A stretch of 64,000 nucleotides of DNA from contig CM075990.1 in NCBI GenBank assembly GCA_038087875.1, positions 15,006,001-15,070,000 of the forward strand. The letters are read 5' to 3'. Positions 4,956 through 60,187 of the stretch are shown here, piece after piece (the stretch's first letter is position 1; each line of letters begins with the position of its first letter). The position numbers and the translations under genes are program-made. The notes below the pieces were generated by a model. The model saw only the letters and a program-made list of their open reading frames with translations. It was not told where the DNA came from and made no database searches. This stretch comes from Malacoraja senta (taxonomy: Eukaryota).

Positions 4956-7550
4956 ATTTTTTAACTTGGTTGACACAGTAGTGTTTTCAACTTGGTTGAC
5001 ACATAATCCCTGTACAACTTATTGGCTGCTTTGCGTGAATGGATGTGAGTGCATTATAGGAATGCATCTTTTAATTTGTGTAATTGGAGCTATGATGAAA
5101 ATCCCTTATACATTTGCAGTGTTGGGTTGCCATAAGGAATATCAAATATGCACTGATCCTGTTTAATTAAAAAAATATATGATTAGAAAAATATATTTGA
5201 TCCTCAAGCTTAAAATTCAATTGAGGTAATATACTAGAGCACCAGAAATTGTTAATCATTTTATTAAATTATCATCAATAAGTGTTATTATAATGTTAAA
5301 AAAATAAAATCTCTTTTGTTTTTGTTATAGTTGTACAACACCTAAACACACCCTTCGGCCCATCATGTACAAGGCAACCATCAAGTACCAATCAATGCTA
5401 GTCCTTTTTACTGCCACTTGGTCCATAGTCTACTGTGCTTTGTCAATACAAGTGCTTGAGCAAAAAACAAACTGCTGGAGAAACTCAGTGGGTCAGGCAG
5501 CATCTGTGGAAGGAAATGGATAGGTAACATTTTGGGTTGGGATCTTTGTTCAAGCAAGTGGTTTTCCAGAAACTGTTTAAATGTTATGAGATTATCCATC
5601 CTGGCCACAGGTAATGTAGTCCAATTCTAATCCCTATTCGAATCGGGGGGAAAACTCGGGAGTTGATGAAAAGTCTGTCCTTGCATCCCCTCTCAACCTA
5701 CTGACCCTTTACATTAAACCTACGCCCACTTGTTTTAGACCTTTGCTTTGGTTAAGCCATCAAATGTAACTTTTTATTCAGTACACATTAAAAATGCAGG
5801 AATTAATTATCTGTTGTCTGATGCGCTGTTGCAGTAAGAGATTTAGTTTTGTTTAAAACATCTATATACTTGCTTGCAATGGTGTTATTAAATTTCTGTG
5901 ATCTGATTTAAAACTTTGCCCAGTTGAGATGCTAAAATTCTTCATTGAAGTGGGGCTAAATATCCTTTATTTCCAAATGGGTTGTAATTTTTCTTTTAAT
6001 TATTTAGTCGTAATCAGTGCCAAATGAGTAAACTCACAGTGATCCCAGAATGGTGCGGGAAAATGAAAATGGATAAGACATTCTACTGGATCAGTAGGTG
6101 GTGCTCTTCTGAGGCTGACTTCTTAAACTCAGCTGAAACAATGAGGTGGAAGAAACTGCTTTACGAGTACTGTGCTATAGGGAATTTTACCATTTTATTC
6201 CACACTGTGCCCTCACCTCAAGCGTTCAAGTTCATGAAAACGTATGATATTAACCGCTCTGAGCAGCTCGTCCATTAATTCCCTTCATTGTGAAGTGGAA
6301 TTGCAAATAAAAATGTGTGTGAATAGCCCAGAGGGTTTATGAGTATCTAATTATGAAACCAATGACTGGATATATACATATAAAACTTTTCAAGAATACA
6401 TAGAAAACTTAATGTATGTTAACTTTGCTACAAGCATCACTTAGCATGAAATTGTGGTTTTCCAGGCTGTTTAACACTACAGTAGTCATTAAAATTAATT
6501 CAGTGCTTACTTTATGCAAAGATGGCTGTAAACTCACTAATTTCAGAAAAGCTGGATAGTTTGCTGTAGATAATTCAATAGTGTAAAATTACTTGAGATA
6601 GCTGGTGTAAAGAGGTACAATATGAAGGGGGAAAGTTGATAAGTTTTGTTAAGAGGCGGGCGATATGTCCTTGGACTGACACTCCACGCTGACATTTGTT
6701 TCCCTTTAAATAATAAGCTGTACATCTAAGAGAGTGATGGTGGGTTGTTTGTGACATTGCCTCTCAACCAAGGTTACTGGCTCCAGGACACCGAGTCTCT
6801 CTCTCCGACTGTCAATAACCATCTACTTGTCTGAGTAATGGCTACTTTCTGCAAGGAATTACTGACTCTCAATTCACACCAGAGTGTTTTTATTTCTATC
6901 ACCATCTATCCCCACCCATTTAAACATGTTATGATAAATAACATGCTGCCCAGTAGTGCACTTGTTCCCAAAGTAATTCATTATTCGCATTCTTCTTGAA
7001 TTTTATAGGAAATTTAGATTGTATTCAATGCATTATGTGCTGAACAAATGCGATCAATATTTACGTTTTATTCTGAAATTTTTATTCTGAAGTTGCTGAG
7101 ATTATTTTTAAAGTAAAGCTTTACATATATTGTGGTAGTGAGGCTGGATCTTCAACAGATTCCTTAATTGATAAAGTTGATAGAGTCATGCAGTATAGTA
7201 TGAACCCTTCAGTCCACTATGTCTGTGCCAAGCACTTATACTAATTTGCACTAGTCCTACACTAACCCCAGTGTGGCACTTTTGGGGTGAGTGGTAGAAT
7301 ATGGGGGGGGGGGGGGGGGGGAAGGGAGGTGGTTGTTGGGAATGTGAGGAGAATAACCACATCCCAAAGACGTGCAGGTTCATGGGTTAGTTGAACTCTG
7401 TAAATTGGCTTCTGTGTATAACAAATAGATGCAAAAGTATGATAACATTGAACAAGTGTGAGTGGACTCTGATACAGTGATGATGTATCTTTCAATTATA
7501 TGGGATTAGTGTAGTCTTCTTCTTATCAAGTCCACACACAAGATTAGAAG

Positions 7551-7733
7551 GTACACGAAAATGCTGGAGAAACTCAGCGGGTGCAGCAGCATCTATGGAG
7601 CGAAGGAAATAGGTAACGTTTCGGCCCGAAACGTTACCTATTTCCTTCGCTCCATAGATGCTGCTGCACCCGCTGAGTTTCTCCAGCATTTTTGTGTACC
7701 TTCGATTTTCCAGCATCTGCAGTTCCTTCTTTA
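7551..7733. mobile_element. Palindromic Penelope-derived mini-element
   Basis: About 75-bp inverted arms centred on TTTCG-GCC-CGAAA. 15-bp TSD ACACAAGATTAGAAG at 7536-7550 and 7734-7748. Confidence 0.85.
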
Positions 7734-7835
7734 ACACAAGATTAGAAGTTGTTCAGCCAGAGATGAACACACTTCTCGGCATTTGCATACAATGGTGTCT
7801 GTCTTGTGCTTCTTGTGCTTCTTGTGCGTGGTGGT

Positions 7836-7887
7836 GGAAAGATTGGTGAAAACAGGGCCGTGACGTGAACGCTCTTTCCTTGACCCC
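7836..7887 (-). ncRNA. HDV-like ribozyme fold, family B (one P3 mismatch)
   Basis: GGGGTC-AA-GGAAAGA-GCG-TTCACGT-CAC-GGCCCT-G-TTTTCA-CCAA-TCTTTCC maps onto P1/P2/P3/L3/P3/P1/P1.1/J4-2/P2. Confidence 0.7.
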
Positions 7888-10624
7888 ATTAGTGTAGTAA
7901 AACACAATAGTTCATAAGTTATAGGAGCAGAATTAGGCCACTTGGCCCATCAAGTCTATTCCGCCATTCAATCATGGCTGATATATCTTTACCTCTCAAC
8001 CCCATTCTCCTGCCTTCTCCTCATAAACCCTTACACCCACACCAATCAAAAGTGCAGGTGAAGAAACACACATGGCTGTAATAACAAGTCTGGGTTATGG
8101 CATTGAGCAGAGAGACAGCTTTCCAGTGAAAGATCGACACAAAATGCTGGGGTAACTCAGTGGGACAGGCAGCATCTCTGGAGAGAAGGAATGGGTGATT
8201 TTTTTGGATCTAGACCCTTCTTCAGACTGATCCAAGTGCTTGCTTGAGGCCATGCTGGAAGAAATGTCTGCTCGTTGAATCTTCAGAAGAGCTTTTCAAC
8301 CATATGATAGATCAAATGAGATCAAAAAGGTTTCTTTTGAGACTCTGTAGCTTGGGAAAGCTTTCTCGTGCACTGAAAAGTCGTCAAAATGTCTATTTAA
8401 GTTTCATGGTTCCTCTTCAATGGAGTGATTGTATCTGACTCCACCACCATCTCTGGCAGTATGTTCTAAATATCAAATGTGTGTATAAAAAAACTTACTA
8501 TTCATTTCTCCTTTAAAACACCTTCCTCTCATCTGAAACCTTTGCCCTGTCATTTTTGATACCCCTACCATGAGAGACAATGTCTGACTATCTACTTTAC
8601 CCACGCCTCTCATAAATTCATACTCTTCTGAGAGAAGCTATTTAACCCTTTCGAATCAAAAATCGAACCCCTTTTAATCCGTCCTAGCAAAACAAAGATA
8701 TTTGCATTAAATCGCTTTGAGTACAGTGAACAAGTCGTAGTCATATAGGATGGAAACAGGCTCTTTGGCCCAACTTGCCCATACCGGCTAAGCTGCGTTT
8801 GTGTTTTTTATGACTGTTGGCAGATCAATTTCCCTCCTGGGATAAATAGAGTTCTATCGTATCATATTGTTTAATGTCGTATATCACTCTAAACATTTCC
8901 TATCCATGTACCTATTCTAAAGCCTTTTCAATATTGTTATTTGTACCTGCCTCAACTACCTCCTCTGGCAGCTCATTTCATCTCCCCAGCACACTCTGTG
9001 TGAAAATGTTGCCGACAGATTCCTATTAAATCTTTCCTCTCTCACCTTAAATTATTCTTTTTAACCTTCACCACCATTTTGGAAAATTCATTCCACTTAA
9101 TGTTCAAATTGTTTGCAACGTTAACAAAAATCTAAGTCTGCTCTTGACTTTATTCTAATGTGTAAACTGAGCCGCTATATGAATGGTGGGCTGCAAGGTT
9201 TGTTTGTATTTGTAGTTATGATTCCTTGGTTCAGCAGTGATATACACAAGAATAGTTCAGGTTTTGCTTGCTAAAAACAGGTACTGATCTATGACCTTAA
9301 GTACCCGAGAGCCATAATTTAATAGAAGCAGCAGAAATGTTGTTATGATGCCAAAATCATTATATTTTTCTCTTAGTCTTCTATCAACTGTAATTACCAC
9401 AAAGAGGAGTCCAATTTGCTTGTTTTTTGAAATATATTTTTTGCAGCTGTTGAAAATCTGTTGGAGTGAAATGATTTCTGAGCCTGTTCGGCTCAAGGTC
9501 AGATGATACCATTCAGTTATAACAAGGAGTGAATAAGCTGGGATCTGTCAACCATGACGTAGAAAAGAACAGTAATGTACAGTTCATGAATTAAAACCTG
9601 TCACTTTTTTTCAGACGCCACTGGCCAACTTGTCAAACTTAAAACTTTCAGTCGTGATGTCTGTCACATCACTTTTAACAAATTTGAACCTCGTGCGTTC
9701 CTGTATTTGAACCAGCTGGTAGGAAAATGGCATGACTCTTGGTTAAATATTGCGTGAAAATCAAAAATGAAACAAGGTTTTGTGATGGATCTAATTCTAA
9801 TCTATTGGAAGACCCCAATAATCAATGATAAGATGTTGCTTCATTAGCTACTTTTAGCTCTGAATGATTAAAAATGGAGATGATCTCTTGAGATTTCAGT
9901 AAAATTCAGATTTTGGCCGGAACTTTTAAATGAAATGCAATGTAGAGCAGGTGTAATATAACTTGGTTCACTTTTGACGTGTTTGTACGTCCAGGTGCTA
10001 GAACTATTGAAAGCTTGTTTAAGGGTCAGTTTAATTAACAGCTGCCCTTTTTCTGTGGATGTCATAAAGTGTGCTATTATCATGAAGTGCCCGGGTGCCT
10101 TTGTTAAATTCCAGCAGCTGGTGACAGCTTGGCAAATTATGAGTTTCCTGGTTTAAACCAGTCTAAATTGCAGACAAAACAAACCATCAGCTGTGCAAAT
10201 ACTGCACCTCTGTTTGGCTTCACAAGAAGAAAGAGATTAGAATGAGTACTTAGTGATCATAATTACTGGTAAGAGGCAAATACTAGGTTCAGTCAGACTA
10301 GAGATTGTTTCATTATATCCAATTAACACCCACTAGATTATTCCTAATTACTGCTGTTAGAGGAGTAGAGATGTCATACTCCAAACATGTAAAAAGCACA
10401 TGGGTCATTGATAACCATATGGTAATATCGATTGGTTCTGGTCTTAAATTGCAGCATTTGTCTTAAATTTTCACCGTTCACACTTAGCATTGATTCTGAT
10501 AACACAATTTTGGGATGGAGAGTCACTTGTCTGTGCAACGGAATGTTAAAAGTGGTCAGGTTAAAGTGGAATTTATCTTTAACCATCTCTGATTAAATGG
10601 TTCAATAAGTTATTTTAATTTGGT

Positions 10625-10784
10625 AGACAAAAATGCTGGAGAAACTCAGCGGGCGAGGCAGCATCGTCCCCTATCTGTTTCGTTACCTATTCCTTCGCTC
10701 CATAGATGCTGCCTCACCCGCTGAGTTTCTCCAGCATTTTTGTCTACCTTCGATTTTTCCAGCATCTGCAGTTCTTTCTTAAAC
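10625..10784. mobile_element. Palindromic Penelope-derived mini-element
   Basis: Inverted arms AGACAAAAATGCTGGAGAAACTCAGCGG. 13-bp TSD ATTTTAATTTGGT at 10612-10624 and 10785-10797. Confidence 0.8.
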
Positions 10785-11146
10785 ATTTTAATTTGGTGTA
10801 CATGTTGATTCAAGAATTAGGCAGCAGTTTTCTTTAAAAAAGATTTAACATCTGTATATCAGGGCAGAGGAAAAGTTACCACGACAGGCACATGTATTCA
10901 TCTTCGGTTTTGTTATCTCCAAGCTCTTCACGGTGCATTGTTTCTGTCTTTCTACAGCCAAATCCTGAGTTTTTTCCAGAGATGCTGCCTGACCTGTTGA
11001 GTTACTCCAGCACTTAGTGTCCTCAATGTTTGTTGAATGGACATTTGCAGTTACGAGCAAATCTCCATAGGAATGTTTAAAAAAAAACTCTAATATCAAA
11101 CATTGTATTTTGGGAAATTTCTGTGATTAGCAATGGAGGTGAGGGG

Positions 11147-11788: not shown

Positions 11789-12940
11789 ATAGATACATAG
11801 ATACATAGAAAATAGGTGCAGGAGTAGGCCATTCGGCCCTTCGAGCCTGCACCGCCATTCAATACGATCTTGGCTGATCATCCAACTCAGTATCCCGTAC
11901 CTGCCTTCTCTCCATACCCCCTGATCCCTTTAGCCACAAGGGCCACATCTAACTCCCTCTTAAATATAGCCAATGAACTGGCCTCAACTACCCTCTGTGG
12001 CAGAGAGTTCCAGAGATTCACCACTCTCTGTGTGAAAAAAGGTTTTTCCTCATCTCGGTCTTAAAGGATTTCCCCCTTATCCTTAAGCTGTGACCCCTTG
12101 TCCTGGACTTCCCCAACATCGGGAACAATCTTCCTGCATCTAGCCTGTCCAACCCCATAAGAATTTTGTACGTTTCTATAAGATCCCCTCTCAATCTCCT
12201 AAATTCTAGCGAGTATAAGCCAAGTCTATCCAGCCTTTCTTCATATGAAACTCCTGACATCCCAGGAATCAGTCTGGTGAACCTTCTCTGCACTCCTTCT
12301 ATGGCTATAATGTCCTTCCTCAGATTTGGAGACCAAAACTGTACGCAATACTCCAGGTGTGGTCTCACCAAGACCCTGTACAACTGCAGTAGAACCTCCC
12401 TGCTCCTATACTCAAATCCTCTTGCTATGAAAGCCAACATACCATTCGCTTTCTTCACTGCCTGCTGCACCTGCATGCCTACTTTCAATGACTGGTGTAC
12501 CATGACACCCAGGTCTCGCTGCATCTCCCCATTTCCTAATCGGCCACCATTTAGATAATAGTCTGCCTTCCCGTTTTTGCCACCAAAGTGGATAACCTCA
12601 CATTTATCCACATTATACTGCATCTGCCAAACATTTGCCCACTCACCCAGCCTATCCGTCACCTTGCAGTCTCCTAGCATCCTCCTCACAGCTAACACTG
12701 CCCCCCAGCTTAGTGTCATCCGCAAACTTGGAGATGTTGCTTTCAATTCCCTCATCCAGTTCATTAATATAAATTGTAAATAGCTGGGGTCCCCGCACTG
12801 AGCCTTGCGGTACCCCACTTGTCACTGCCTGCCATTGTGAAAAGGACCCGTTTACTCCTACTCTTTGCTTCCTGTTTGCCAGCCAGTTCTCTATGCACAT
12901 CAATACTGAACCCCCAATACCGTGTGATTTAAGTTTGTAT
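11789..12940 (-). mobile_element. CR1-clade LINE (HER1-like), 5'-truncated RT C-terminus plus 3' UTR, frameshifted
   Basis: Encodes [33 protein letters not shown] and RGDLIETYK in frameshifted ORFs (12652-12966 and 12018-12818). Has an 8-bp (ATAGATAC)n tail. Confidence 0.95.
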
Positions 12941-29016: not shown

Positions 29017-29207
29017 CTTCTTCTTCGTGGTCCATCTTGTTACAAATGTTGGCCTCGCTGTCATCGTCCGTCCTGAAATGGACGCAAGCTTCCGGCGACA
29101 ATCATTGGAAGCCATCACTTGTCGAAAATTGATGATGGTGGTAGCAGAATTAGCTCGGGATACTTCCAGTTTCCAGCCCCGCAACGTGGACGCTTCTGCT
29201 TGGGGCC
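29017..29207 (-). mobile_element. Short retroposon family C, full length (CPEB3-like ribozyme head, GAA tail)
   Basis: 12-bp TSD ACATTTC(C/T)CTTT at 29005-29016 and 29208-29219, (GAA)n tail, second copy at 18506. Confidence 0.9.
29143..29207 (-). ncRNA. HDV-like (CPEB3-like) self-cleaving ribozyme
   Basis: GGCCCC-A-AGCAGAA-GCG-TCCACGT-TGC-GGGGCT-GG-[P4]-CTAA-TTCTGCT. P1, P2, P3 and the 2-bp P1.1 all pair. Candidate catalytic C at 29153. Confidence 0.85.
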
Positions 29208-30296
29208 ACATTTCTCTTTAATTTACTGTCTCCTGATAGCCACAACTGATCCCTTCTTCTTGTTGAGCTTTTGTGCCATAAAGGGACCTTTATTATTTGT
29301 AACTATAGATTCATTCTTTAAATGTTGGTTGTTGGTTTTAACGATGTTGGCCGCTTCACCAGTGCGCTCTCAGATTACCCTGGTTTTTAGATTCTACTAA
29401 ATCAAATTAAGGTATGAAATTCTATCATTTTATGATCACTGTTCACTAAAGGTTCCTTAACTGCCAGATCATCAATTAACATTTTCTCCATCAATAAACT
29501 AAAATGGCCTAAAAGGGCACAAAGTGCTGGAATAACTCAGCAGGTCAGGCAGCACTCTGGAGAATATGGAAAGGTGATATTTTCAGGTTGAGAGTCCCTA
29601 CTTCAGATGGATTGTGGGGGGTGGGGGGTGGGGGGGGGGGGGGGAGAAAGCTGGAAAGGGAGGTAGCAGGACAAAGTATGACAGGTAAATGATAGAGAGG
29701 CAAGGTTTTTTTTGATAGGCAGATGGTGGGAACAAAGGTGTAGGAAGGAACTACAGATGCTAGTTTAAACCGTAGACACAAACATCTAAAGAAGGGTTTC
29801 GGCCCGAAACGTTACCTATTTCCTTCGCTCCATAGATGCTGCTGCACCCGCTGAGTTTCTCCAGCATTTTTGTGTACCTTCTAAAGTAACTCAACTGGTC
29901 AGACAGAATGTCAAGTTCCAGGAGTACATAATGCCCAGCTGTGCTCACTATGCAAACCATTATACCCATTTATTTTGATTTGTGCCATTTATTCACTTAT
30001 CTCATTAAAATTGTTGTATGCATTCAGTTTTACCCTGTTAACTATTTTGCTCCGATTTTCAGTTGAGGTCTACACCTACACTGTGCATTCCACAGTGACT
30101 TCTCATGCCCAAAGGTGTTTTTACCTTCAGTATCCAAACACATTGCCAAAAAGTCTGAAGAAGGGTCTTGACCTGAAACGTCACCCATTCCTTCTATCCG
30201 GAGATGCTGCCTGTCCCCCGCTGAGTTACGTCATCAGTTTGTGTCTATCCTCGCCTTGAAATTCCCAATCACTTTTTAATTCCTTCACCTTTTTGG

Positions 30297-32020: not shown

Positions 32021-32461
32021 TATCATACATGAGTTATATCATTTACATGAGTTATCTGTCAGAATATTAGTCCTCTTTTTATTCACATTGCATTCATTTG
32101 CATCCACGCTCTTGGTATCTTTTATAAAATTATTTAACTAAAAAATTATTTAACTAAAAAAAACTATATATGAGTTAGATATAGCTCTTGGGGCTAATGG
32201 AATCAAGGGATATAGGGAAAAAGCAGGAACGAGGCACTGATTACGATGATCAGTCATGATCATATTGAATGGCGGTGCTGGCTCGAAGGGCTGAATGGCC
32301 TACTCCTACACCTATTTCTATGTTTCTATGTTTCTTGTTTAAATAAAATGAAAACCTTGGGTGTCCAGTGTCTGACAGTAATATTCGTCGACCTGTGAAA
32401 ATAGCAGTTTTGTCCACTGGTGTGGTTTTCTTTGTCGTTGAAGGAGAAGGATCACTTTGTT

Positions 32462-32686
32462 CACAAAAATGCTGGAGAAACTCAGCGGGTGCAGCAGCAT
32501 CTATGGAGCGAAGGAAATAGGCAACGTTTTGGGCCGAAACCCTTCTTCTTCTGAAGAAGGTCTGAAGAAGGGTTTCGGGCCCGAAACGTTGCCTATTTCC
32601 TTCGCTCCATAGATGCTGCTGCACCTGCTGAGTTTCTCCAGCATTTTTGTGTACCTTCGATTTTCCAGCATCTGCAGTTCCTTCTC
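32462..32686. mobile_element. Palindromic Penelope-derived mini-element with opposed hammerhead cores
   Basis: About 90-bp inverted arms. AGGT-CTGAAGA-AGGGTTTCGGGCCC-GAAAC-GTT-GCCT at 32558-32594. Confidence 0.85.
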
Positions 32687-33475
32687 TAACTCTTTATCAC
32701 TTTGACAACTGACAATTTTGTCAACATTGAGTTATTGCTTGTTTCAGGGTATTTGAGATTTGCTCCGCACAATGGTGAACAAAATAAGTCCTTCTCTGAG
32801 TACAATTTGAAAATATTTATACCGGAGAAGTAAGAGATTCCATCACAGACAGAGCTGAAAGAAAACCACCTTTTCCTCATTTACAAGAAAACTCCTTTCT
32901 ATCAATTACTTCCTTTTGTCAAAGTAGGGCAGCATAGTGCAATCGATGTCAGATATGAGGTACATCGGTCATTAAATGGGGAAACGAGCAAATAACTAAT
33001 AGGATCCAACTGCTTATGGTATTCTCTGCAGGCTACCAGGAAAGTTGGAACTCACTTTACTTGTAGCTTGGCCAACATATGGAGTAAATTGTATGTTTTC
33101 CTAAAGCATTAATGTCTTGATTTGACAGCTCAAAATGACGGGGCTCTTGGGCTTGCGATTCTTCAGGCAATCCTGAAAACTTAGATTTCTTGTCTTCTGC
33201 CAGCAATTTCTGAAGCATATAATCTATTTTGTGCACGGGACCTCAAGGAATGCAAGGTAAGAAAGAAAATATTACCTAATATGGCAATGATCCCACATCT
33301 TTATAAAAAAGCTTTCACCTGATCGAATTGAAGTTCTATTGAAGATTTTTTTAATCAAAATACACACCAGTTGAGCAGATTTTTATTCTGTTGACAACAG
33401 AGGCATTGCCATTTTCAGGTTACGTTACATGGTATGTGAAACGTGTGGAAGGGAGCAAACATCCCAGTTTTAATT

Positions 33476-34750: not shown

Positions 34751-35811
34751 CAAGTCAAGAATCAAGTTTCCTTTATTGTCATTCAGACCTTTCGGTCTGA
34801 ACGAAATGGTGATGCCTGCAGTCATACACAGAACCAATAATAACAAAACATACAATAAACACAAATTAAACATCCACCACAGTGAGTTCACCAAGCACAT
34901 CCTCACTGTGATGGAGGCAAAGTCTTAGTCTCCGTCTCTTCCCTCCTTGTTCTCCCTCTGCGCTGAAGCGATCGATCCAGGCCGAAGATGCCGCCCTCCA
35001 GTCCAGCGGACCTCCATGGAGATGTCGCCGCCGCCGAAAGCCGGAACGCCGTCTCCGCTCCGAGACGGCCCGCCACAGCATCAGCCCCAGGTCCCGCAGT
35101 CTCCGCTCCGGACCCCACTGCCCCAGCTCCAGACCCCGCAGTCCCCGCTCCGGACCCCGCTGCCCCAGCTCCAGGTCCCGCAGTCCCCGCTCCGGACCCC
35201 GCTGCCCCAGCTCCAGACCCCGTAGTCTCCGCTCCGGACCCCGCTGCCCCAGCTCCAGGTCCCGTAGTCTCCGCTCCGGACCCCGCTGCCCCAGCTCCAG
35301 ACCCCGTAGTCTCCGCTCCGGACCCCGCTGCCCCAGCTCCAGGTCCCGCAGTCCCCGCTCCGGACCCCGCTGCCCCAGCTCCAGGTCCCGCAGTCTCCGC
35401 TCCTGACCCCGCTGCATCAGCTCCAGGTCCCGCAGTCTCCGCTCCGGACCCCGCTGCATCAGCTCCAGGCTGCCGCCGAAAGCCAGAACGCCGCACCAGC
35501 AAGTCGGGCCACCGCTGCCTCAGCCCCGAAGACGGCCAGCCTCCCGTTGGTAAGTCCTGGCTGGCTCTGCCTCCGTAGCCTTGGAGTCGGTCGCAGGATG
35601 GAGTCGGCCAGCCCCGCCATAAGGCCTCACCGCAGACGGAGGCAAGGAAGGGGGGTACGACACGAAAAAGTCGCATTCCCCGAAGGAGGAGACAGAGAAC
35701 ATGTTTCTCCCCCCCTAACACAACCCAACAAACTAAAACTTAACAAAACAAGACAAAAAAAATAACAGAAAAAAGTAAAAACAGACGGACTGCAGGCGAG
35801 CCGCAGCCGAT
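34751..35811 (-). mobile_element. Nested non-autonomous non-LTR element with a GC-rich minisatellite
   Basis: CAAG-repeat tail plus TTTATTGTCAT like the Rex1-type copies. AATAT is duplicated at the flanks, and the host transposon resumes after it. Confidence 0.65.
35082..35469. repeat. 42-bp minisatellite, about 9 units (two diverged 21-bp halves)
   Basis: Unit AGCTCCAGGTCCCGCAGTCTCCGCTCCGGACCCCGCTGCCCC. ORFs across it show a 14-aa period. Confidence 0.95.
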
Positions 35812-36664: not shown

Positions 36665-37049
36665 TATAGAAACGTACAAAATTCTTATGGGGTTGGACAG
36701 GCTAGATGCAGGAAGATTGTTCCCGATGTTGGGGAAGTCCAGGACAAGGGGTCACAGCTTAAGGATAAGGGGGAAATCCTTTAAGACCGAGATGAGGAAA
36801 AACTTTTTCACACAGAGAGTGGTGAATCTCTGGAACTCTCTGCCACAGAGGGTAGTTGAGGCCAGTTCATTGGCTATATTTAAGAGGGAGTTAGATGTGG
36901 CCCTTGTGGCTAAAGGGATCAGGGGGTATGGAGAGAAGGCAGGTACGGGATACTGAGTTGGATGATCAGCCATGATCATATTGAATGGCGGTGCAGGCTC
37001 GAAGGGCCGAATGGCCTACTCCTGCACCTATTTTCTATGTATCTATGTA
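36665..37049 (+). mobile_element. CR1-clade LINE 3' fragment, same young family as 11789-12940
   Basis: Encodes IETYKILMGLDRLDAGRLFP...FFTQRVVNLWNSLP. Nearly identical to the reverse complement of about 11795-12180. Confidence 0.95.
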
Positions 37050-47866: not shown

Positions 47867-48559
47867 GATGCTGCCTGACCCACTGAGTTCCTCCCAGCAC
47901 CTTGTGTTCTGCTCACTCTGAAATAGTGATTGTGTCAACAAGAAGTTTGAAATGAATGACTGTAAAAACTAAGAATTTGTAACACATTTGGCACTCTGGA
48001 TTTAACATTCCTGTGTGAATAATAAAAATGTCCTATTTTACAGAGAATTCAAAACATATTAGCTCTCTCGAGGAGGAAAGATCCTTCCCCTTGACCAATG
48101 CCCAGTGTGGAACTGACATCTCAGCTGTGTGTGTGGAAAAGATATCATGGAAATATCAGTCCAGATACAACCTCTTAGCTATTCTCAATATGGGACCTCT
48201 GGGTCAGTTGACTGCCTCGTATGCCATGGTTGTATGATCTGACCCATGCAAGTGAAAGCAAGACCCAAATTGAAAGCAAGCGTGAAAGACCGTACCCTCT
48301 ACAGCTTATCAGGGGTCATTCCAAGTTAATTTCTTGCTCTCTGAGCAGAGAGATTGAGTTGTTGGCATGACAAGACAGCACGTGAGAAACATAGAAAGCA
48401 AAAAAGGCGATATGAGTTTGAATGATTGTTTTCACCGGATTTTTACAGTATTCTGCATACATCTATTGGGAGAATCCTATCTGAGCCATAAAAATGGTGC
48501 ATATTAAAATATGAAACAAAACATCGCATTGTTGGTGGAAAAAAGGCACAGGTTAGATA

Positions 48560-48872
48560 TACGTACTTACTGCCTATTATGCTTCCTGGCATGTAGGGCA
48601 GCAACAAGGGTCCTCCACTCCTATTCCCAGTAGTGTTGATTCCTTCAGTTGCTGTTTCCGTAACATATGTGTTTTACGAGACAGGGTTGTTAGCCCTGTG
48701 CTCAACCCCCAACCTGGAGGACCAGTGGATCGCTCTTCGTCTCGCCTCTACCCTTCGACCTGTCCAGCATGGGAGACCCTAACAGGAGACAAATCTCCTG
48801 CTGGCATAGCTCTAGAGGTCACTGAGACACACAAGCTCCCCGACCACGACAAGGTTGCAATCCAACGGGGAG
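48560..48872 (-). mobile_element. Non-autonomous RTE-derived element (family D) with an HDV-like 5' end
   Basis: 10-bp TSD AGGTTAGATA (48550-48559 and 48873-48882). RTE-type 5' UTR motifs CCTTGTCGTGGT and GGGCTAACAACCC. TAAG-type tail. Confidence 0.8.
48727..48872 (-). ncRNA. HDV-like ribozyme with a long P4
   Basis: CTCCCCG-TT-GGATTGC-A-ACC-TTGTCGT-GGT-CGGGGAG-C-[~95 nt]-CGAAGA-GCGATCC. Confidence 0.6.
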
Positions 48873-49514
48873 AGGTTAGATAGAGGAGGCATATTATTCA
48901 GAACAGGGATGGACATTAAGACAGAAACTAATAGTGGTTGCAGAGGCAAGCAAAGGGAGATCAGTTGTGCAGAGAGATGACATAAGTATTGGATGGATGT
49001 TCTTGCAATGCGTAATGATACCAGGTGATGGAGCAGAGATTGAATGGATTGTGTTTGGAAAGATTCTGGCCTTTTCATGATCAGGAAGTAATGACCTTGG
49101 TGTTCACACCTTGGCCTGGCAATCGAGACTGAGGACTAGATTTGGTCAGTGGACCAAGTAAACATTATTTTAACTTGTCCAAGGTGTGATGTTTGAACAT
49201 TTGTGGTTTTAGGTTCTAGTTTTTGGAATGTTGCTGAATAGCTAAATGTCTGGGAATGAGTTATATGACTGTGGATGACAGGAATGGATTAAACTGTGGA
49301 CACATCAAGGTGACTTTTGGAAGAAGCAGCCATGACAGCAGATGTGAATAATTTATTTGGATATTACTGTAAGGGATGTATTCAGTGAAGCGTGTAGCTG
49401 TATAACACTGGATATCAGTAGACAAAGCAACGGAAGATGATGGAATGATTGACTGTGGCAAATGCCTTTGTAATTTTAGGAAGATGTTGAGTTATGGTGT
49501 ACATTAGTTGCCAC

Positions 49515-55736: not shown

Positions 55737-57106
55737 TTACTCTCTTACTCGCTTGGAGACTCAACTATTGGCAAATCTTAGAAGCTTGTTTTGTACAGGC
55801 GTCAGAGGTTATGGAAAGTAGGCAGGATAATGGGGTTCGGAGGGAGAGGTAGATCAGCCATGATTGAATGGGGGAGTAGACTTGATGGGCCGAATGGTCT
55901 AATTCGACTCCTATCGCTTATGACCTTATGACCACAGATACGAACATTGAAATATTAGTGCAGACCAGAATTGAGGGAGTGCTGTACAGAATAAATATTG
56001 ATTTTTCTAACTTCAAGTAACCCTTGCATCCCCCCTCTCTCCATGCCTTCCCCACCCTCGTCGTACTAGCTTCAGTCATCTTATTGAGTCTCATTATCTG
56101 TAACTCATTTTCACCTGACAAACAGCTGACAATGGCCTGTTTCCTCTATCATCATTACTGTTTTGCATATCTTTCATTCGTTTATTCTATATCATCGTCT
56201 ATCTCGTTTCTCTTTCCCCGACCCTCCGTTTGAAGAAGGGGCTCAACCCGAAACGTCACCTATTCCTTTTCTCCAGAGATGCTCTCTGACCCGCTGTGTT
56301 CCTCCAGCTTTTTGTGACAGGTCAGGAAGCATCTGTGGAGGGAACAGACAGGCAATGTTTTGGGTTGGTAGTCTTCTTCAGACCATTCTTTACATTGATA
56401 CATATTGTTGATAGTAGAGAGTTTATTAATCATTTTTGGAACATCAAGAGTCGATATCTGCTTGTTTTTTAATTTTGATTCTTGCCTTTTGCATCCATAT
56501 ATTCTGCTACAGTTTTTTTTTCACACTGCAAAATGTCTTTATTGTCACCTTTCATCTTTCAAAGTGTTCTCCGAGATCTCATAGCAACCACCTTTTATCC
56601 ACTTTGAATATCTTTTTTCCAACAAATCATTTTTTTCCAAGGCTTAATAGTACATAATCTTAAGTGTGGTACAATTTATAACATAATGCACAACTTGGGT
56701 ATTTATTATGCAGTGTGCTATTTGCAACTTCAGCTATTCTCAACATAATAATGTAAATTATGTTTCAAAGAAAACTCCCCTAAAGAGGTTCTCTTCTGTT
56801 TTAATTTTGCACTTTGATAGATGCATCTGAAACCAATAGCTGCTGAGTTATTAACACTGTAATTATGATAAAAATATGCTTTATGTTTTTTTTATTATGT
56901 TTCTAAGTGTACGCAGTGGGATACTGAATAGAACAGTTTACCATTTTTGCTCATAACAGCATTTCCGATTTGGATGCTGTCAGTTGCAAACTACAAACTT
57001 GTTGGAATCAGAAATCTCTTGTGGGAGGCTTATATCAACTTCCTCCCCCTCCCCCCACCCCCCCCCCCCTCCCCACTAATGCCCTGCCTAGTTCTCTTTT
57101 GAGTTC

Positions 57107-57286
57107 AGACAAAAGTGCTGGAGAAACTCAGCGGGTGAAGCAGCATCTATGGAGCGAAGGAAATGGCAACGTTTTGGCCCGAAACGTTGGCTATTTCCTT
57201 CGCTCCATAGATGCTGCTGCACCCACTGAGTTTCTCCAGCCCTTTTGTTTACCTTAGATTTTCCAGCATCTGCAGTTCCTCCTTAA
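57107..57286. mobile_element. Palindromic Penelope-derived mini-element
   Basis: Inverted arms around TTTTGGCCCGAAA. TTTTGAGTTCA is duplicated at both flanks. Confidence 0.8.
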
Positions 57287-57632
57287 TCTCTTTTGAGTTC
57301 AATCCACAAGTATCCCTCACTGCTCTCTGTACAGCACAGAAACAGGCCTTTTGGTCCACCATATCCATGCTAACCACTCCACTGATCTGTACGAGACCTA
57401 TTTCTAGGAATTTTGGCTTTTAATTACTTACAGTTTTAACACATCTGCCAAGATTTTAATCATTTAATGAAGGGAGTTTTGCCTTTTGAAGAGCCTTGTG
57501 GTTGTGTTAAATTATTGGGGTTGCGTTTGTACTTTGTTTTAATTTCCATCCTTTTGTTTTCAGGACCCAAAACAAACTTTAGAGATGATAGCTACCTAAA
57601 ATATCAATGTTCAGTTATTGATATTTCTAATA

Positions 57633-59378: not shown

Positions 59379-59662
59379 CTTGTATGTGAGAGCCTAACCC
59401 TTTTGGTTCTGATGGTGGTTCCCAATATTTTCATTATGTTTGCTACCTTTTGCTTCTCTTAAAATTAACTTTTGAATTTGCTGGTCTTTGCCTCCAACCC
59501 TTACGAGACTGGAATATTTTATCGTATTAATGGAAACAAAGGGAAATAGTCATTAGCAGAAGGGAACTGAGAAATACTCATAATACTGAATGGAAGTTGT
59601 CTTGTGGCAAGTCATCAGTAGAATGGCCCAAATAAAAGTTGACTTCTCTTTACTATAAAGTT

Positions 59663-59889
59663 GGGGTCAAGGAAAGAGCGTTCACATCGCGACCCTGCTT
59701 CCATGAATCTTTCCACCACCACGCGCAAGACAGACACCATTGTATGCAGATGCCGAGACACATGTTCAGCTCTGGCTGAACAACTTCTAATCTTGTGTGT
59801 GGACTCGACAAGAAGAAGACTACACTAATCCCATATAATTGAAAGATACATCATCACTGTATCCTAGTCCACGCACACTCATTCAATGT
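59663..59889 (+). mobile_element. Short retroposon family B plus 71 bp of transduced 3' flank
   Basis: 9-bp TSD TATAAAGTT (59654-59662 and 59890-59898). Element 59663-59818 ends in GAAGAAG. The span 59819-59889 matches the reverse complement of about 7445-7515. Confidence 0.85.
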
Positions 59890-60187
59890 TATAAAGTTTA
59901 CAGGTTCCTTAAATAATGTTCTAATCTCTCTATATGCAGAAATGTCAGAAAATGATAAACAAATGTTGTACTTCTAGATTATTGTTGCCATTATGTTCTT
60001 ATTATGTGGTTAATGTTTCAGTGAGGACGTAGAGTTACTTTATCCCTTCCGAGCAGAAACAAGGTCACCCTGTTAAAGAAATTTCCCTTTCAATATTTTA
60101 TTTCTCTCCAGGTGCAGACTGCATTTTCAGCAGTCACCTCCTTATATAGGAAGCCCAGAGTGGACACCAATGCAGTGTTCATTATGA

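What the first reader, a model, noticed from the sequence alone, without database searches (positions are those of the whole stretch)
59654..59898. Source-daughter pair: 3' transduction from the 7.5 kb copy, 52 kb away
Seen: the 59.7 kb insertion (TSD TATAAAGTT) carries 71 bp past the GAA tail that match the flank of the 7.5 kb copy (reverse complement of about 7445-7515). That flank starts with the 7.5 kb copy's own TSD (ACTACACTAAT) and runs on into a local decayed V-SINE, so it looks native to that locus. The daughter lacks the Penelope hairpin at 7551-7733 and begins exactly at ribozyme G1. Inference: the 7.5 kb copy was transcribed by read-through, cut at G1 and reinserted nearby, inverted, before the PLE insertion. 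This is direct support for the proposed mechanism and suggests local hopping.
Basis: partly seen in the sequence, partly recalled or inferred. Interest (0 to 1): 0.75.

Follow-up and report, generated by a model that had tools for sequence, protein, structure and literature searches.

The report
Copied flank mimics retroposon 3' transduction
Two copies of a short jumping element 52 kb apart do share a 71-base piece of flanking DNA, but the supposed daughter copy already sits at the same place in related species, so the piece was more likely pasted into an existing copy later (probably during DNA repair from its neighbour) than carried along when a new copy jumped nearby.

Summary
The sequence claims hold. 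59819-59889 matches the 3' flank of the 7.5 kb copy (66 of 71), starts with that copy's TSD, is the decayed end of a SINE native to 7.4 kb, and resolves to two loci in own-species contigs. The inference is weakened. In 3 of 3 related species laid, the left flank runs into the element at the same junction. In the one relative whose right flank was recovered, the match starts exactly at the 3' TSD and the 34 letters before it are neither the extension nor the left flank. The two bodies share no derived change (10 and 6 private substitutions). Starting at G1 is the family norm, and there is no second tail. Best reading (0.55): an older insertion gained 69-71 bp from its neighbour by one-sided ectopic invasion and end-joining at 1-3 bp of microhomology. 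Rivals: RNA-templated rewriting (0.17); true local transduction with later loss at a TATAA repeat in that relative (0.18). The 34 letters were not shown, so this is not settled. Known kind of event; interest 0.3.

The parts
59654..59662 (+). 5' target-site duplication of the 59.7 kb copy (D), 9 bp; possibly 11 bp from 59652
   Evidence: shared 7-mer with the S target site at the same offset
59663..59818 (+). body of D, 156 bp short non-coding retroposon; lacks two 9-bp units that S, the family majority and the ortholog in run X17 have
   Evidence: (tables 3, 7, 8)
59663..59714 (+). CPEB3/HDV-like ribozyme fold: 6-bp P1 with G1.U, 7-bp P2, 3-bp P3, almost no P4. In D the inferred catalytic C (59704) is T and one L3 G (59686) is A, so probably inactive today
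   Evidence: catalytic position inferred from HDV/CPEB3 geometry (own knowledge)
59810..59818 (+). short (GAA)n tail; family contigs end at about 59819
   Evidence: table 7
59819..59889 (+). 71-bp extension copied from the 3' flank of S; its first 11 bp are S's TSD; all 5 differences lie in 59864-59881; no second tail
   Evidence: two loci in run X1
59834..59838 (+). TATAA inside the extension, equal to the first 5 bases of the 3' TSD; a deletion between the two would also make an ortholog start matching at 59890 (basis of a rival)
59890..59898 (+). 3' target-site duplication of D; its first 3 bases also match the S flank (junction microhomology)
7888..7898 (-). 5' TSD of the 7.5 kb copy (S), 11 bp
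7516..7887 (-). S element (donor), 372 bp with the nested hairpin; carries the family-majority letter at 10 of 10 places where D departs; its P3 has a mismatch
7551..7733 (.). young Penelope-type hairpin nested in S, bounded by a 15-bp repeat
   Evidence: GIY-YIG fragment (E 0.003) near another copy at 15.4-16.2 kb; Penelope label partly recalled
7505..7515 (-). 3' TSD of S
7442..7515 (-). donor flank copied into D (71 bp plus 3 bp of microhomology)
7350..7497 (+). old decayed SINE (V-SINE by recall) whose end forms most of the extension; marks the extension as native to the S locus

Best explanation
D is an old, ordinary insertion of the family, made by target-primed reverse transcription before the four sampled species separated. 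Later, probably only in the lineage of this genome, a break at D's tail/3' TSD was repaired from the closest similar sequence, S, 52 kb away. The left end (element tail, perhaps plus ACTA shared by both TSDs) invaded S, copied about 70 bases of S's flank, let go and was joined to the right end at 1-3 bases of microhomology. S was unchanged, so the event was non-reciprocal. The product looks like a 3' transduction but needs no RNA, no ribozyme cut and no new insertion. Shown: donor, direction, two loci, occupied orthologous site in three relatives, extension not adjacent to the TSD in one. Inferred: timing, break position and a DNA rather than RNA template.
For: table 8: left-flank contigs run into the element in 3 of 3 relatives (X3 record 25 to 59735, X11 record 9 to 59689, X17 record 17 to 59755 with 18 extra letters). 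X11 record 16 matches from exactly 59890 and has 34 more letters on its left that fit neither the extension (depth 0 at 59840-59879) nor the left flank (depth stays 7.79 at 59620-59639). The same tool aligned the S contig of X1 through all 5 D/S mismatches to 59892, so a true extension should have aligned. D departs from the family majority at 10 places and S has the majority letter at 10 of 10; S has 6 private changes, none in D. A random insertion lands within 52 kb of its source with a probability of about 4e-5 for an assumed 2-3 Gb genome; most human L1/SVA transductions are interchromosomal (PMC9311842, passage). Templated insertions at breaks have a median size of 120 bp, need donor-acceptor contact and show junction microhomology (bioRxiv 10.1101/2022.09.30.509517; abstract, passages and section 13). 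Flank SNPs place X17's species as most distant and group X3's with X11's, so one gain is the simplest history.
Against: Only 1 of 3 relatives gave a right-flank contig, and its 34 letters were not printed; that they are the family tail is inferred. A deletion between TATAA at 59834 and TATAA at 59890 would give the same start point. The D/S divergence of the extension (5 of 71, 3-4 events) fits an old copy as well as a recent one, and the 5'-versus-3' difference in D/S divergence (14 of 107 vs 7 of 120) is not significant (p 0.069). Absence of shared derived changes is also expected if D was copied soon after S inserted. A 3-bp microhomology without a second tail is also what microsatellite-tailed LINE machinery can leave (own knowledge). 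The species tree rests on 183 bp and is rooted by branch length only.
Confidence: 0.55

Rival explanations
1. First reader's model with a later loss. A read-through RNA from S, cut at G1, was reverse-transcribed into an empty site 52 kb away in the common ancestor, primed at TAT. The relative of run X11 later lost most of the extension, for example by a 56-bp deletion between the two TATAA.
For: Anatomy of a partnered 3' transduction: element, source TSD, source flank, new TSD. Extension at two loci only. The TATAA pair exists. Deletions of 12-19 bp are common here. Extension divergence of 7% is compatible with an age beyond the species splits (7-18 differences in 183 bp between species).
Against: Needs a landing within 52 kb (about 4e-5 without a local bias) and then a deletion ending exactly at the TSD. 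D shares none of S's 6 private changes and is further from the majority than its supposed source (10 vs 6). No second tail. The shared TTTACTA offset (0.001) is left as coincidence.
Confidence: 0.18
2. RNA-templated rewriting of an existing copy. The partner LINE's endonuclease re-nicked D at its 3' TSD, a read-through RNA from S primed at TAT, and the cDNA (flank, tail, part of the body) resolved by annealing to D's homologous body.
For: Explains everything the best explanation does. The junction lies at or within 2 bases of the original nick. Transcription and RNA/DNA hybrids favour templated insertions (bioRxiv 10.1101/2022.09.30.509517, abstract and passages). cDNA-mediated conversion of Alu/L1 copies is recalled, not read here.
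Against: Out of hundreds to thousands of family RNAs it must be the neighbour's, which needs capture of nascent RNA. No S-private change appears in D's body. No host gene or promoter that would transcribe S was found.
Confidence: 0.17
3. The extension belongs to a subfamily or third master, or the two loci are parts of a segmental duplication or inversion.
For: None found beyond the inverted orientation of the pair.
Against: Depth in run X1 (about 88% read) resolves to a D-specific (32.5), an S-specific (18.6) and a shared contig (41.4), i.e. two loci, against 3314 family contigs. Homology ends at the TSDs and both loci keep intact direct TSDs. The extension is colinear with a SINE that continues only at S.
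Confidence: 0.04

Closest known systems
Partnered 3' transduction by L1 and SVA (PMC3024322, PMC12350158, PMC9311842, PMC12593883; passages read)
   Same: Element followed by the source's TSD and unique source flank, all inside a new TSD.
   Different: No second poly(A) or microsatellite tail; the orthologous target is occupied, not empty, in 3 of 3 relatives; the donor is 52 kb away whereas most reported transductions are interchromosomal; the body does not descend visibly from the donor.
Templated insertion at a double-strand break / one-sided invasion with end-joining (bioRxiv 10.1101/2022.09.30.509517 read in part; one-sided invasion seen only as a reference title in PMC4888836, otherwise recalled)
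   Same: About 70 bp copied non-reciprocally from a nearby locus, homology on one side, 1-3 bp microhomology on the other.
   Different: Germline, fixed or common event in a cartilaginous fish, with an interspersed retroposon as the homology; the break and the pathway were not observed.
Bipartite non-autonomous LINEs with a 5' HDV-like ribozyme (RTE, Ingi, Vingi, R2 derivatives such as NARTc, RIME, SIDE; PMC5786205, PMC4035085, passages read)
   Same: Short, non-coding, begins at G1 of an HDV-like fold, microsatellite tail, 9-11 bp TSD, high copy number.
   Different: Autonomous partner not identified; the ribozyme has a 6-bp P1 and almost no P4 and is closest in Rfam to mammalian CPEB3; cleavage untested.

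Membership tests
3' transduction | Unique flank of an identifiable source locus, including the source TSD, follows the element | tested here: met
3' transduction | Element plus flank enclosed by a new TSD | tested here: met
   9-bp TSD; but the TSD may predate the flank
3' transduction | Flank occurs only at source and offspring | tested here: met
   two loci in run X1, about 88% of the run read
3' transduction | Element and flank arrived together: orthologous site empty, or filled with both | tested here: not met
   site filled in 3 of 3 relatives; in 1 of 1 with a right-flank contig the extension is not next to the TSD; later deletion not excluded
3' transduction | Second tail after the flank (defined for L1/SVA) | tested here: not met
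   may not apply to microsatellite-tailed partners
3' transduction | Offspring body descends from the source (shared derived changes) | tested here: inconclusive
   0 shared among 10 D-private and 6 S-private substitutions; 2 rows of the difference table were not shown; also expected if copied early
Templated insertion / one-sided ectopic conversion | Recipient existed before, without the added sequence | tested here: inconclusive
   favoured by X11 records 9 and 16; the 34 letters were not shown
Templated insertion / one-sided ectopic conversion | Non-reciprocal: donor intact, recipient flanks not exchanged | tested here: met
   both TSD pairs intact, S keeps its flank
Templated insertion / one-sided ectopic conversion | Homology at one junction, microhomology at the other | tested here: met
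   156-bp shared body on the left, 1-3 bp on the right
Templated insertion / one-sided ectopic conversion | DNA rather than RNA template | not testable with these tools
   no intron or processing mark inside the copied tract
HDV/CPEB3-like ribozyme | Nested double-pseudoknot helices P1, P2, P3, P1.1 with G1.U | tested here: met
   helices pair in D (P1 6, P2 7, P3 3); S has one P3 mismatch; Rfam scores below gathering; covariation across copies not tested
HDV/CPEB3-like ribozyme | Catalytic C in J4/2 | tested here: inconclusive
   C in S and in 92-96% of family depth, T in D
HDV/CPEB3-like ribozyme | Self-cleavage before G1 | not testable with these tools
   needs an assay; no RNA holder listed
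Bipartite non-autonomous LINE (RTE/Ingi/Vingi type) | 5' and 3' ends match an autonomous LINE | tested here: inconclusive
   protein search with the short 3' frame found nothing; no eukaryotic genome was available

The most novel reading that the evidence does not exclude
The event was RNA-mediated and local: a ribozyme-headed read-through RNA from S was caught by LINE reverse transcriptase near its site of transcription and written into DNA 52 kb away, either as a new insertion or onto an existing copy. That would mean promoterless, ribozyme-released retroposon RNAs can retrotranspose in the neighbourhood of their source, unlike L1/SVA transductions.
Probability: 0.3. Interest if true: 0.65.

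Novelty: new member of a known kind. Interest (0 to 1): 0.3.

Why it matters
If the best reading holds, this is a clean natural case in which repair from a neighbouring repeat forges the full signature used to assign retrotransposon sources (source TSD, unique flank, enclosing TSD). It warns that source-daughter calls, and claims of local hopping, need the orthologous site. It removes this pair as direct support for the read-through/ribozyme model of the family, though hundreds of 5' ends at G1 still fit that model. If an RNA-mediated rival holds, it would be evidence for local retrotransposition and would be much more interesting. One look at related assemblies decides between them.

Tried and rejected
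No whole genome was held, so the genome-wide BLAST was replaced by contigs of 4 of the 24 runs listed. With exact seeds of 31 letters a 45-bp stretch at 4-6% divergence would be found only 27-44% of the time, and a filter drops records. Whether S exists in relatives is therefore unknown. No RNA holder listed. Host gene: 332 translations (329 of the 353 unmasked ORFs, plus 3) gave only two RVT_1 hits, one GIY-YIG hit and four weak hits below cut-off; a crude exon scan gave nothing convincing. A 23-nt family motif had 0 hits in metagenome contigs. Protein searches for the partner LINE and for junction-spanning frames found nothing (weak evidence). Minimum-energy folding is uninformative for a pseudoknot (z from -0.77 to 1.05). 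A likelihood comparison suggested that the X17 ortholog shares D's non-majority letters (ratio about 600), but it rests on flank rates from 2 and 10 changes and on letters not shown, and it does not separate the two main models, so it is not counted. The ratio of depth at 59820-59839 to the tail did not discriminate. Paper searches for this family or this kind of event returned nothing direct: transduction+RTE+SINE+HDV-like ribozyme 0 papers; CPEB3 ribozyme+retrotransposon+shark 0; other searches. Kojima 2011 and Ruminski 2011 were not held. No supplements were read; Repbase-type supplements could name the family. Earlier scan findings: none near or similar; three from other genomes did not bear on this.

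Full report
Observation. I call the 59.7 kb copy D and the 7.5 kb copy S. D runs from 59663 to 59889 between two copies of TATAAAGTT (59654-59662, 59890-59898). S lies on the minus strand, 7887 to 7516, between two copies of ACTACACTAAT. After D's short GAA tail, 59819-59889 match S's 3' flank at 66 of 71 positions, beginning with S's TSD, and the match continues for 3 bases into D's 3' TSD. No other place in the window matches the extension (next E-value 0.13) and these are the only two copies of the family in the window. Homology stops at the TSDs on both sides. S carries a 183-bp hairpin bounded by a 15-bp repeat; D does not. Aligned with eight copies of the window's common SINE, the extension is that SINE's decayed end with two internal deletions, and only at S does it continue into the rest of the SINE.

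The element. Both copies hit Rfam's CPEB3 ribozyme below its gathering score (27.6 and 20.9 bits against 35). The helices can be written out: P1 6 bp with G1.U, P2 7 bp, P3 3 bp, a CPEB3-type L3 and only 5 bases in place of P4. S has a P3 mismatch. D has T at the position I infer to be the catalytic C and A at a conserved L3 G, so D is probably inactive now (inference from HDV geometry, own knowledge). The build (ribozyme at the 5' end, short non-coding body, microsatellite tail, TSD) is that of bipartite non-autonomous LINEs, reported for RTE, Ingi, Vingi and R2 (PMC5786205, passages). I could not identify the partner.

Genome-wide evidence. No genome was held. I laid 59480-60079 on contigs of 4 of 24 listed runs: X1 (own species) and X3, X11, X17 (three other organisms; word shares 0.36, 0.28, 0.23). 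Between 3314 and 4570 contigs per run fit the body, so this is a family of at least many hundreds and probably thousands of copies; depth is not a copy number. The commonest loose ends sit at 59662/59663 (109 and 59 contigs in X1; 138/90, 139/107, 129/114 in the others) and at 59819. Starting at G1 is thus the family norm and carries no information about this pair. Over the extension, X1's depths solve to three contigs: D-specific 32.5 (from 59834), S-specific 18.6 (ending at 59892, as BLAST predicts) and shared 41.4 (ending at 59863, the base before the first D/S difference). With single-copy depth near 22 this is two loci, in a run read to about 88%.

The orthologous site. In 3 of 3 relatives the left-flank contig crosses the TSD into the element: X3 to 59735, X11 to 59689, X17 to 59755, the last with 18 extra letters, the length of the two 9-bp units that D lacks (table 8). 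D is therefore older than these species splits. A right-flank contig was recovered in 1 of 3 (X11 record 16, minus strand, 431 letters). It matches from exactly 59890, the first base of the 3' TSD, and has 34 further letters to the left. They are not the extension, since depth is 0 at 59840-59879 and the tool did align X1's S contig through all five D/S mismatches. They are not the left flank, since depth there stays 7.79. The simplest reading is that the family tail abuts the TSD in that species. The letters were not printed, so this is inferred. Flank differences over 183 bp group X3's species with X11's (4 shared letters) and leave X17's most distant, which makes one gain in this lineage the simplest history; the tree is weak.

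Body comparison. D and S differ at 16 of 156 body positions plus the 18-bp indel. Against the majority letters, D departs at 10 places and S has the majority letter at all 10; S has 6 changes of its own and D has none of them (2 rows of that table were not shown). The supposed daughter is further from the family than its supposed source and shares nothing derived with it. D/S differences are denser in the 5' part (14 of 107) than in the 3' part with the extension (7 of 120), but not significantly (p 0.069). Both target sites share TTTACTA at the same offset before G1 (0.001 in random pairs). If D's TSD is the 11-mer starting at 59652, both TSDs begin with ACTA and the change in this lineage is a clean 69-bp insertion inside D's 3' TSD, with homology to S running through the tail and ACTA. 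This is a prediction, not a result.

Mechanism. Most likely (0.55) a break at D's tail/TSD was repaired by one-sided invasion of the nearest similar copy, synthesis of about 70 bases into its flank, release, and joining at 1-3 bases of microhomology. Proximity is expected for this route. For a random insertion it has a probability near 4e-5 (assumed 2-3 Gb genome), and most human L1/SVA transductions are interchromosomal (PMC9311842, passage). Templated insertions at breaks in human cells have a median size of 120 bp, need donor-acceptor contact and carry junction microhomology (bioRxiv 10.1101/2022.09.30.509517; abstract, passages, section 13). A comparative pipeline for transductions takes an empty orthologous target and a second tail as signatures (PMC3024322, passages); neither is present here.

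Rivals. It has a real handle, because TATAA occurs both at 59834 and at the start of the TSD, and a deletion between them would also start the match at 59890. The extension's divergence (5 of 71) fits either age. But it needs a very close landing, a precisely ending deletion and no inherited change. RNA-templated rewriting of the existing D by S's read-through RNA (0.17) fits the ortholog data as well as DNA repair does, but needs capture of the neighbour's RNA, and no transcription unit over S was found. A third master or a segmental duplication is nearly excluded (0.04).

Verdict. A real and precisely described feature whose interpretation is only partly supported. It looks like a 3' transduction but fails the test that element and flank arrived together, on the evidence of one relative. 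It is most likely a new instance of a known repair outcome. It should not be used as direct support for ribozyme release or local hopping until the 3' junction is read in related assemblies. Searches of the held library found no paper on this family or on such a case; subscription papers, Repbase and supplements were not seen. Interest 0.3; 0.65 if an RNA-mediated local event (probability about 0.3) proves true.

Noticed in passing
window 59677-59695 (+) and 7873-7855 (-): With the family-majority letters, the P3/L3/P1 core equals the Rfam CPEB3 consensus line over 19 consecutive bases (compared by eye). A high-copy fish retroposon this close to the mammalian CPEB3 ribozyme may bear on that ribozyme's origin; PMC8256844 (passages) notes HDV-like ribozymes spread by retrotransposition but names no such relative.
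   Followed up: partly
window 29143-29219 (-), element to about 29015: A second ribozyme-headed, GAA-tailed family: 33.4 bits to CPEB3 (gathering 35), sharing both P2 strands with it, 6-bp P1, and a roughly 10-bp TSD with one mismatch.
   Followed up: partly
window 59662, 7888, 29208: All three ribozyme-headed copies have T just before G1, as the last base of the TSD; in the four runs more 5' junction contigs extend to 59662 than stop at 59663 (109 vs 59, 138 vs 90, 139 vs 107, 129 vs 114). Suggests a top-strand cut after T.
   Followed up: no
window 48557-48880: Short element that resembles a bipartite RTE-type non-autonomous retroposon with a (TAAG)n-like tail on the minus strand (resemblance recalled, not tested).
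   Followed up: no
window 7551-7733, 57100-57290, 32450-32700, 10620-10790: Several Penelope-type terminal repeats occur as near-perfect hairpins; those at 7.6 and 57.2 kb are bounded by 12-15 bp direct repeats.
   Followed up: partly
run X3 record 25 (59480-59735): The ortholog of D in this species has a net 19-letter deletion, probably inside the ribozyme region (position not shown).
   Followed up: no
window 59759-59762, 59704-59705, 59864-59865, 59880-59881: D/S differences come as adjacent clusters (4, 2, 2, 2 bases); CpG decay on both strands explains some, template switching or error-prone synthesis might explain others.
   Followed up: partly
window 34989-35553: GC-rich tandem array with a 21/42-bp unit, open in several frames.
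   Followed up: no
window 11794-12180 and 36665-37049: Two very young LINE fragments in inverted orientation, 97-99% alike over 400 bp, 24.5 kb apart.
   Followed up: no
window about 26.5-26.7 kb and one other place: The window holds 200 N (assembly gaps), at least one between S and D, so the 52-kb distance and relative orientation rest on scaffolding across a gap.
   Followed up: no
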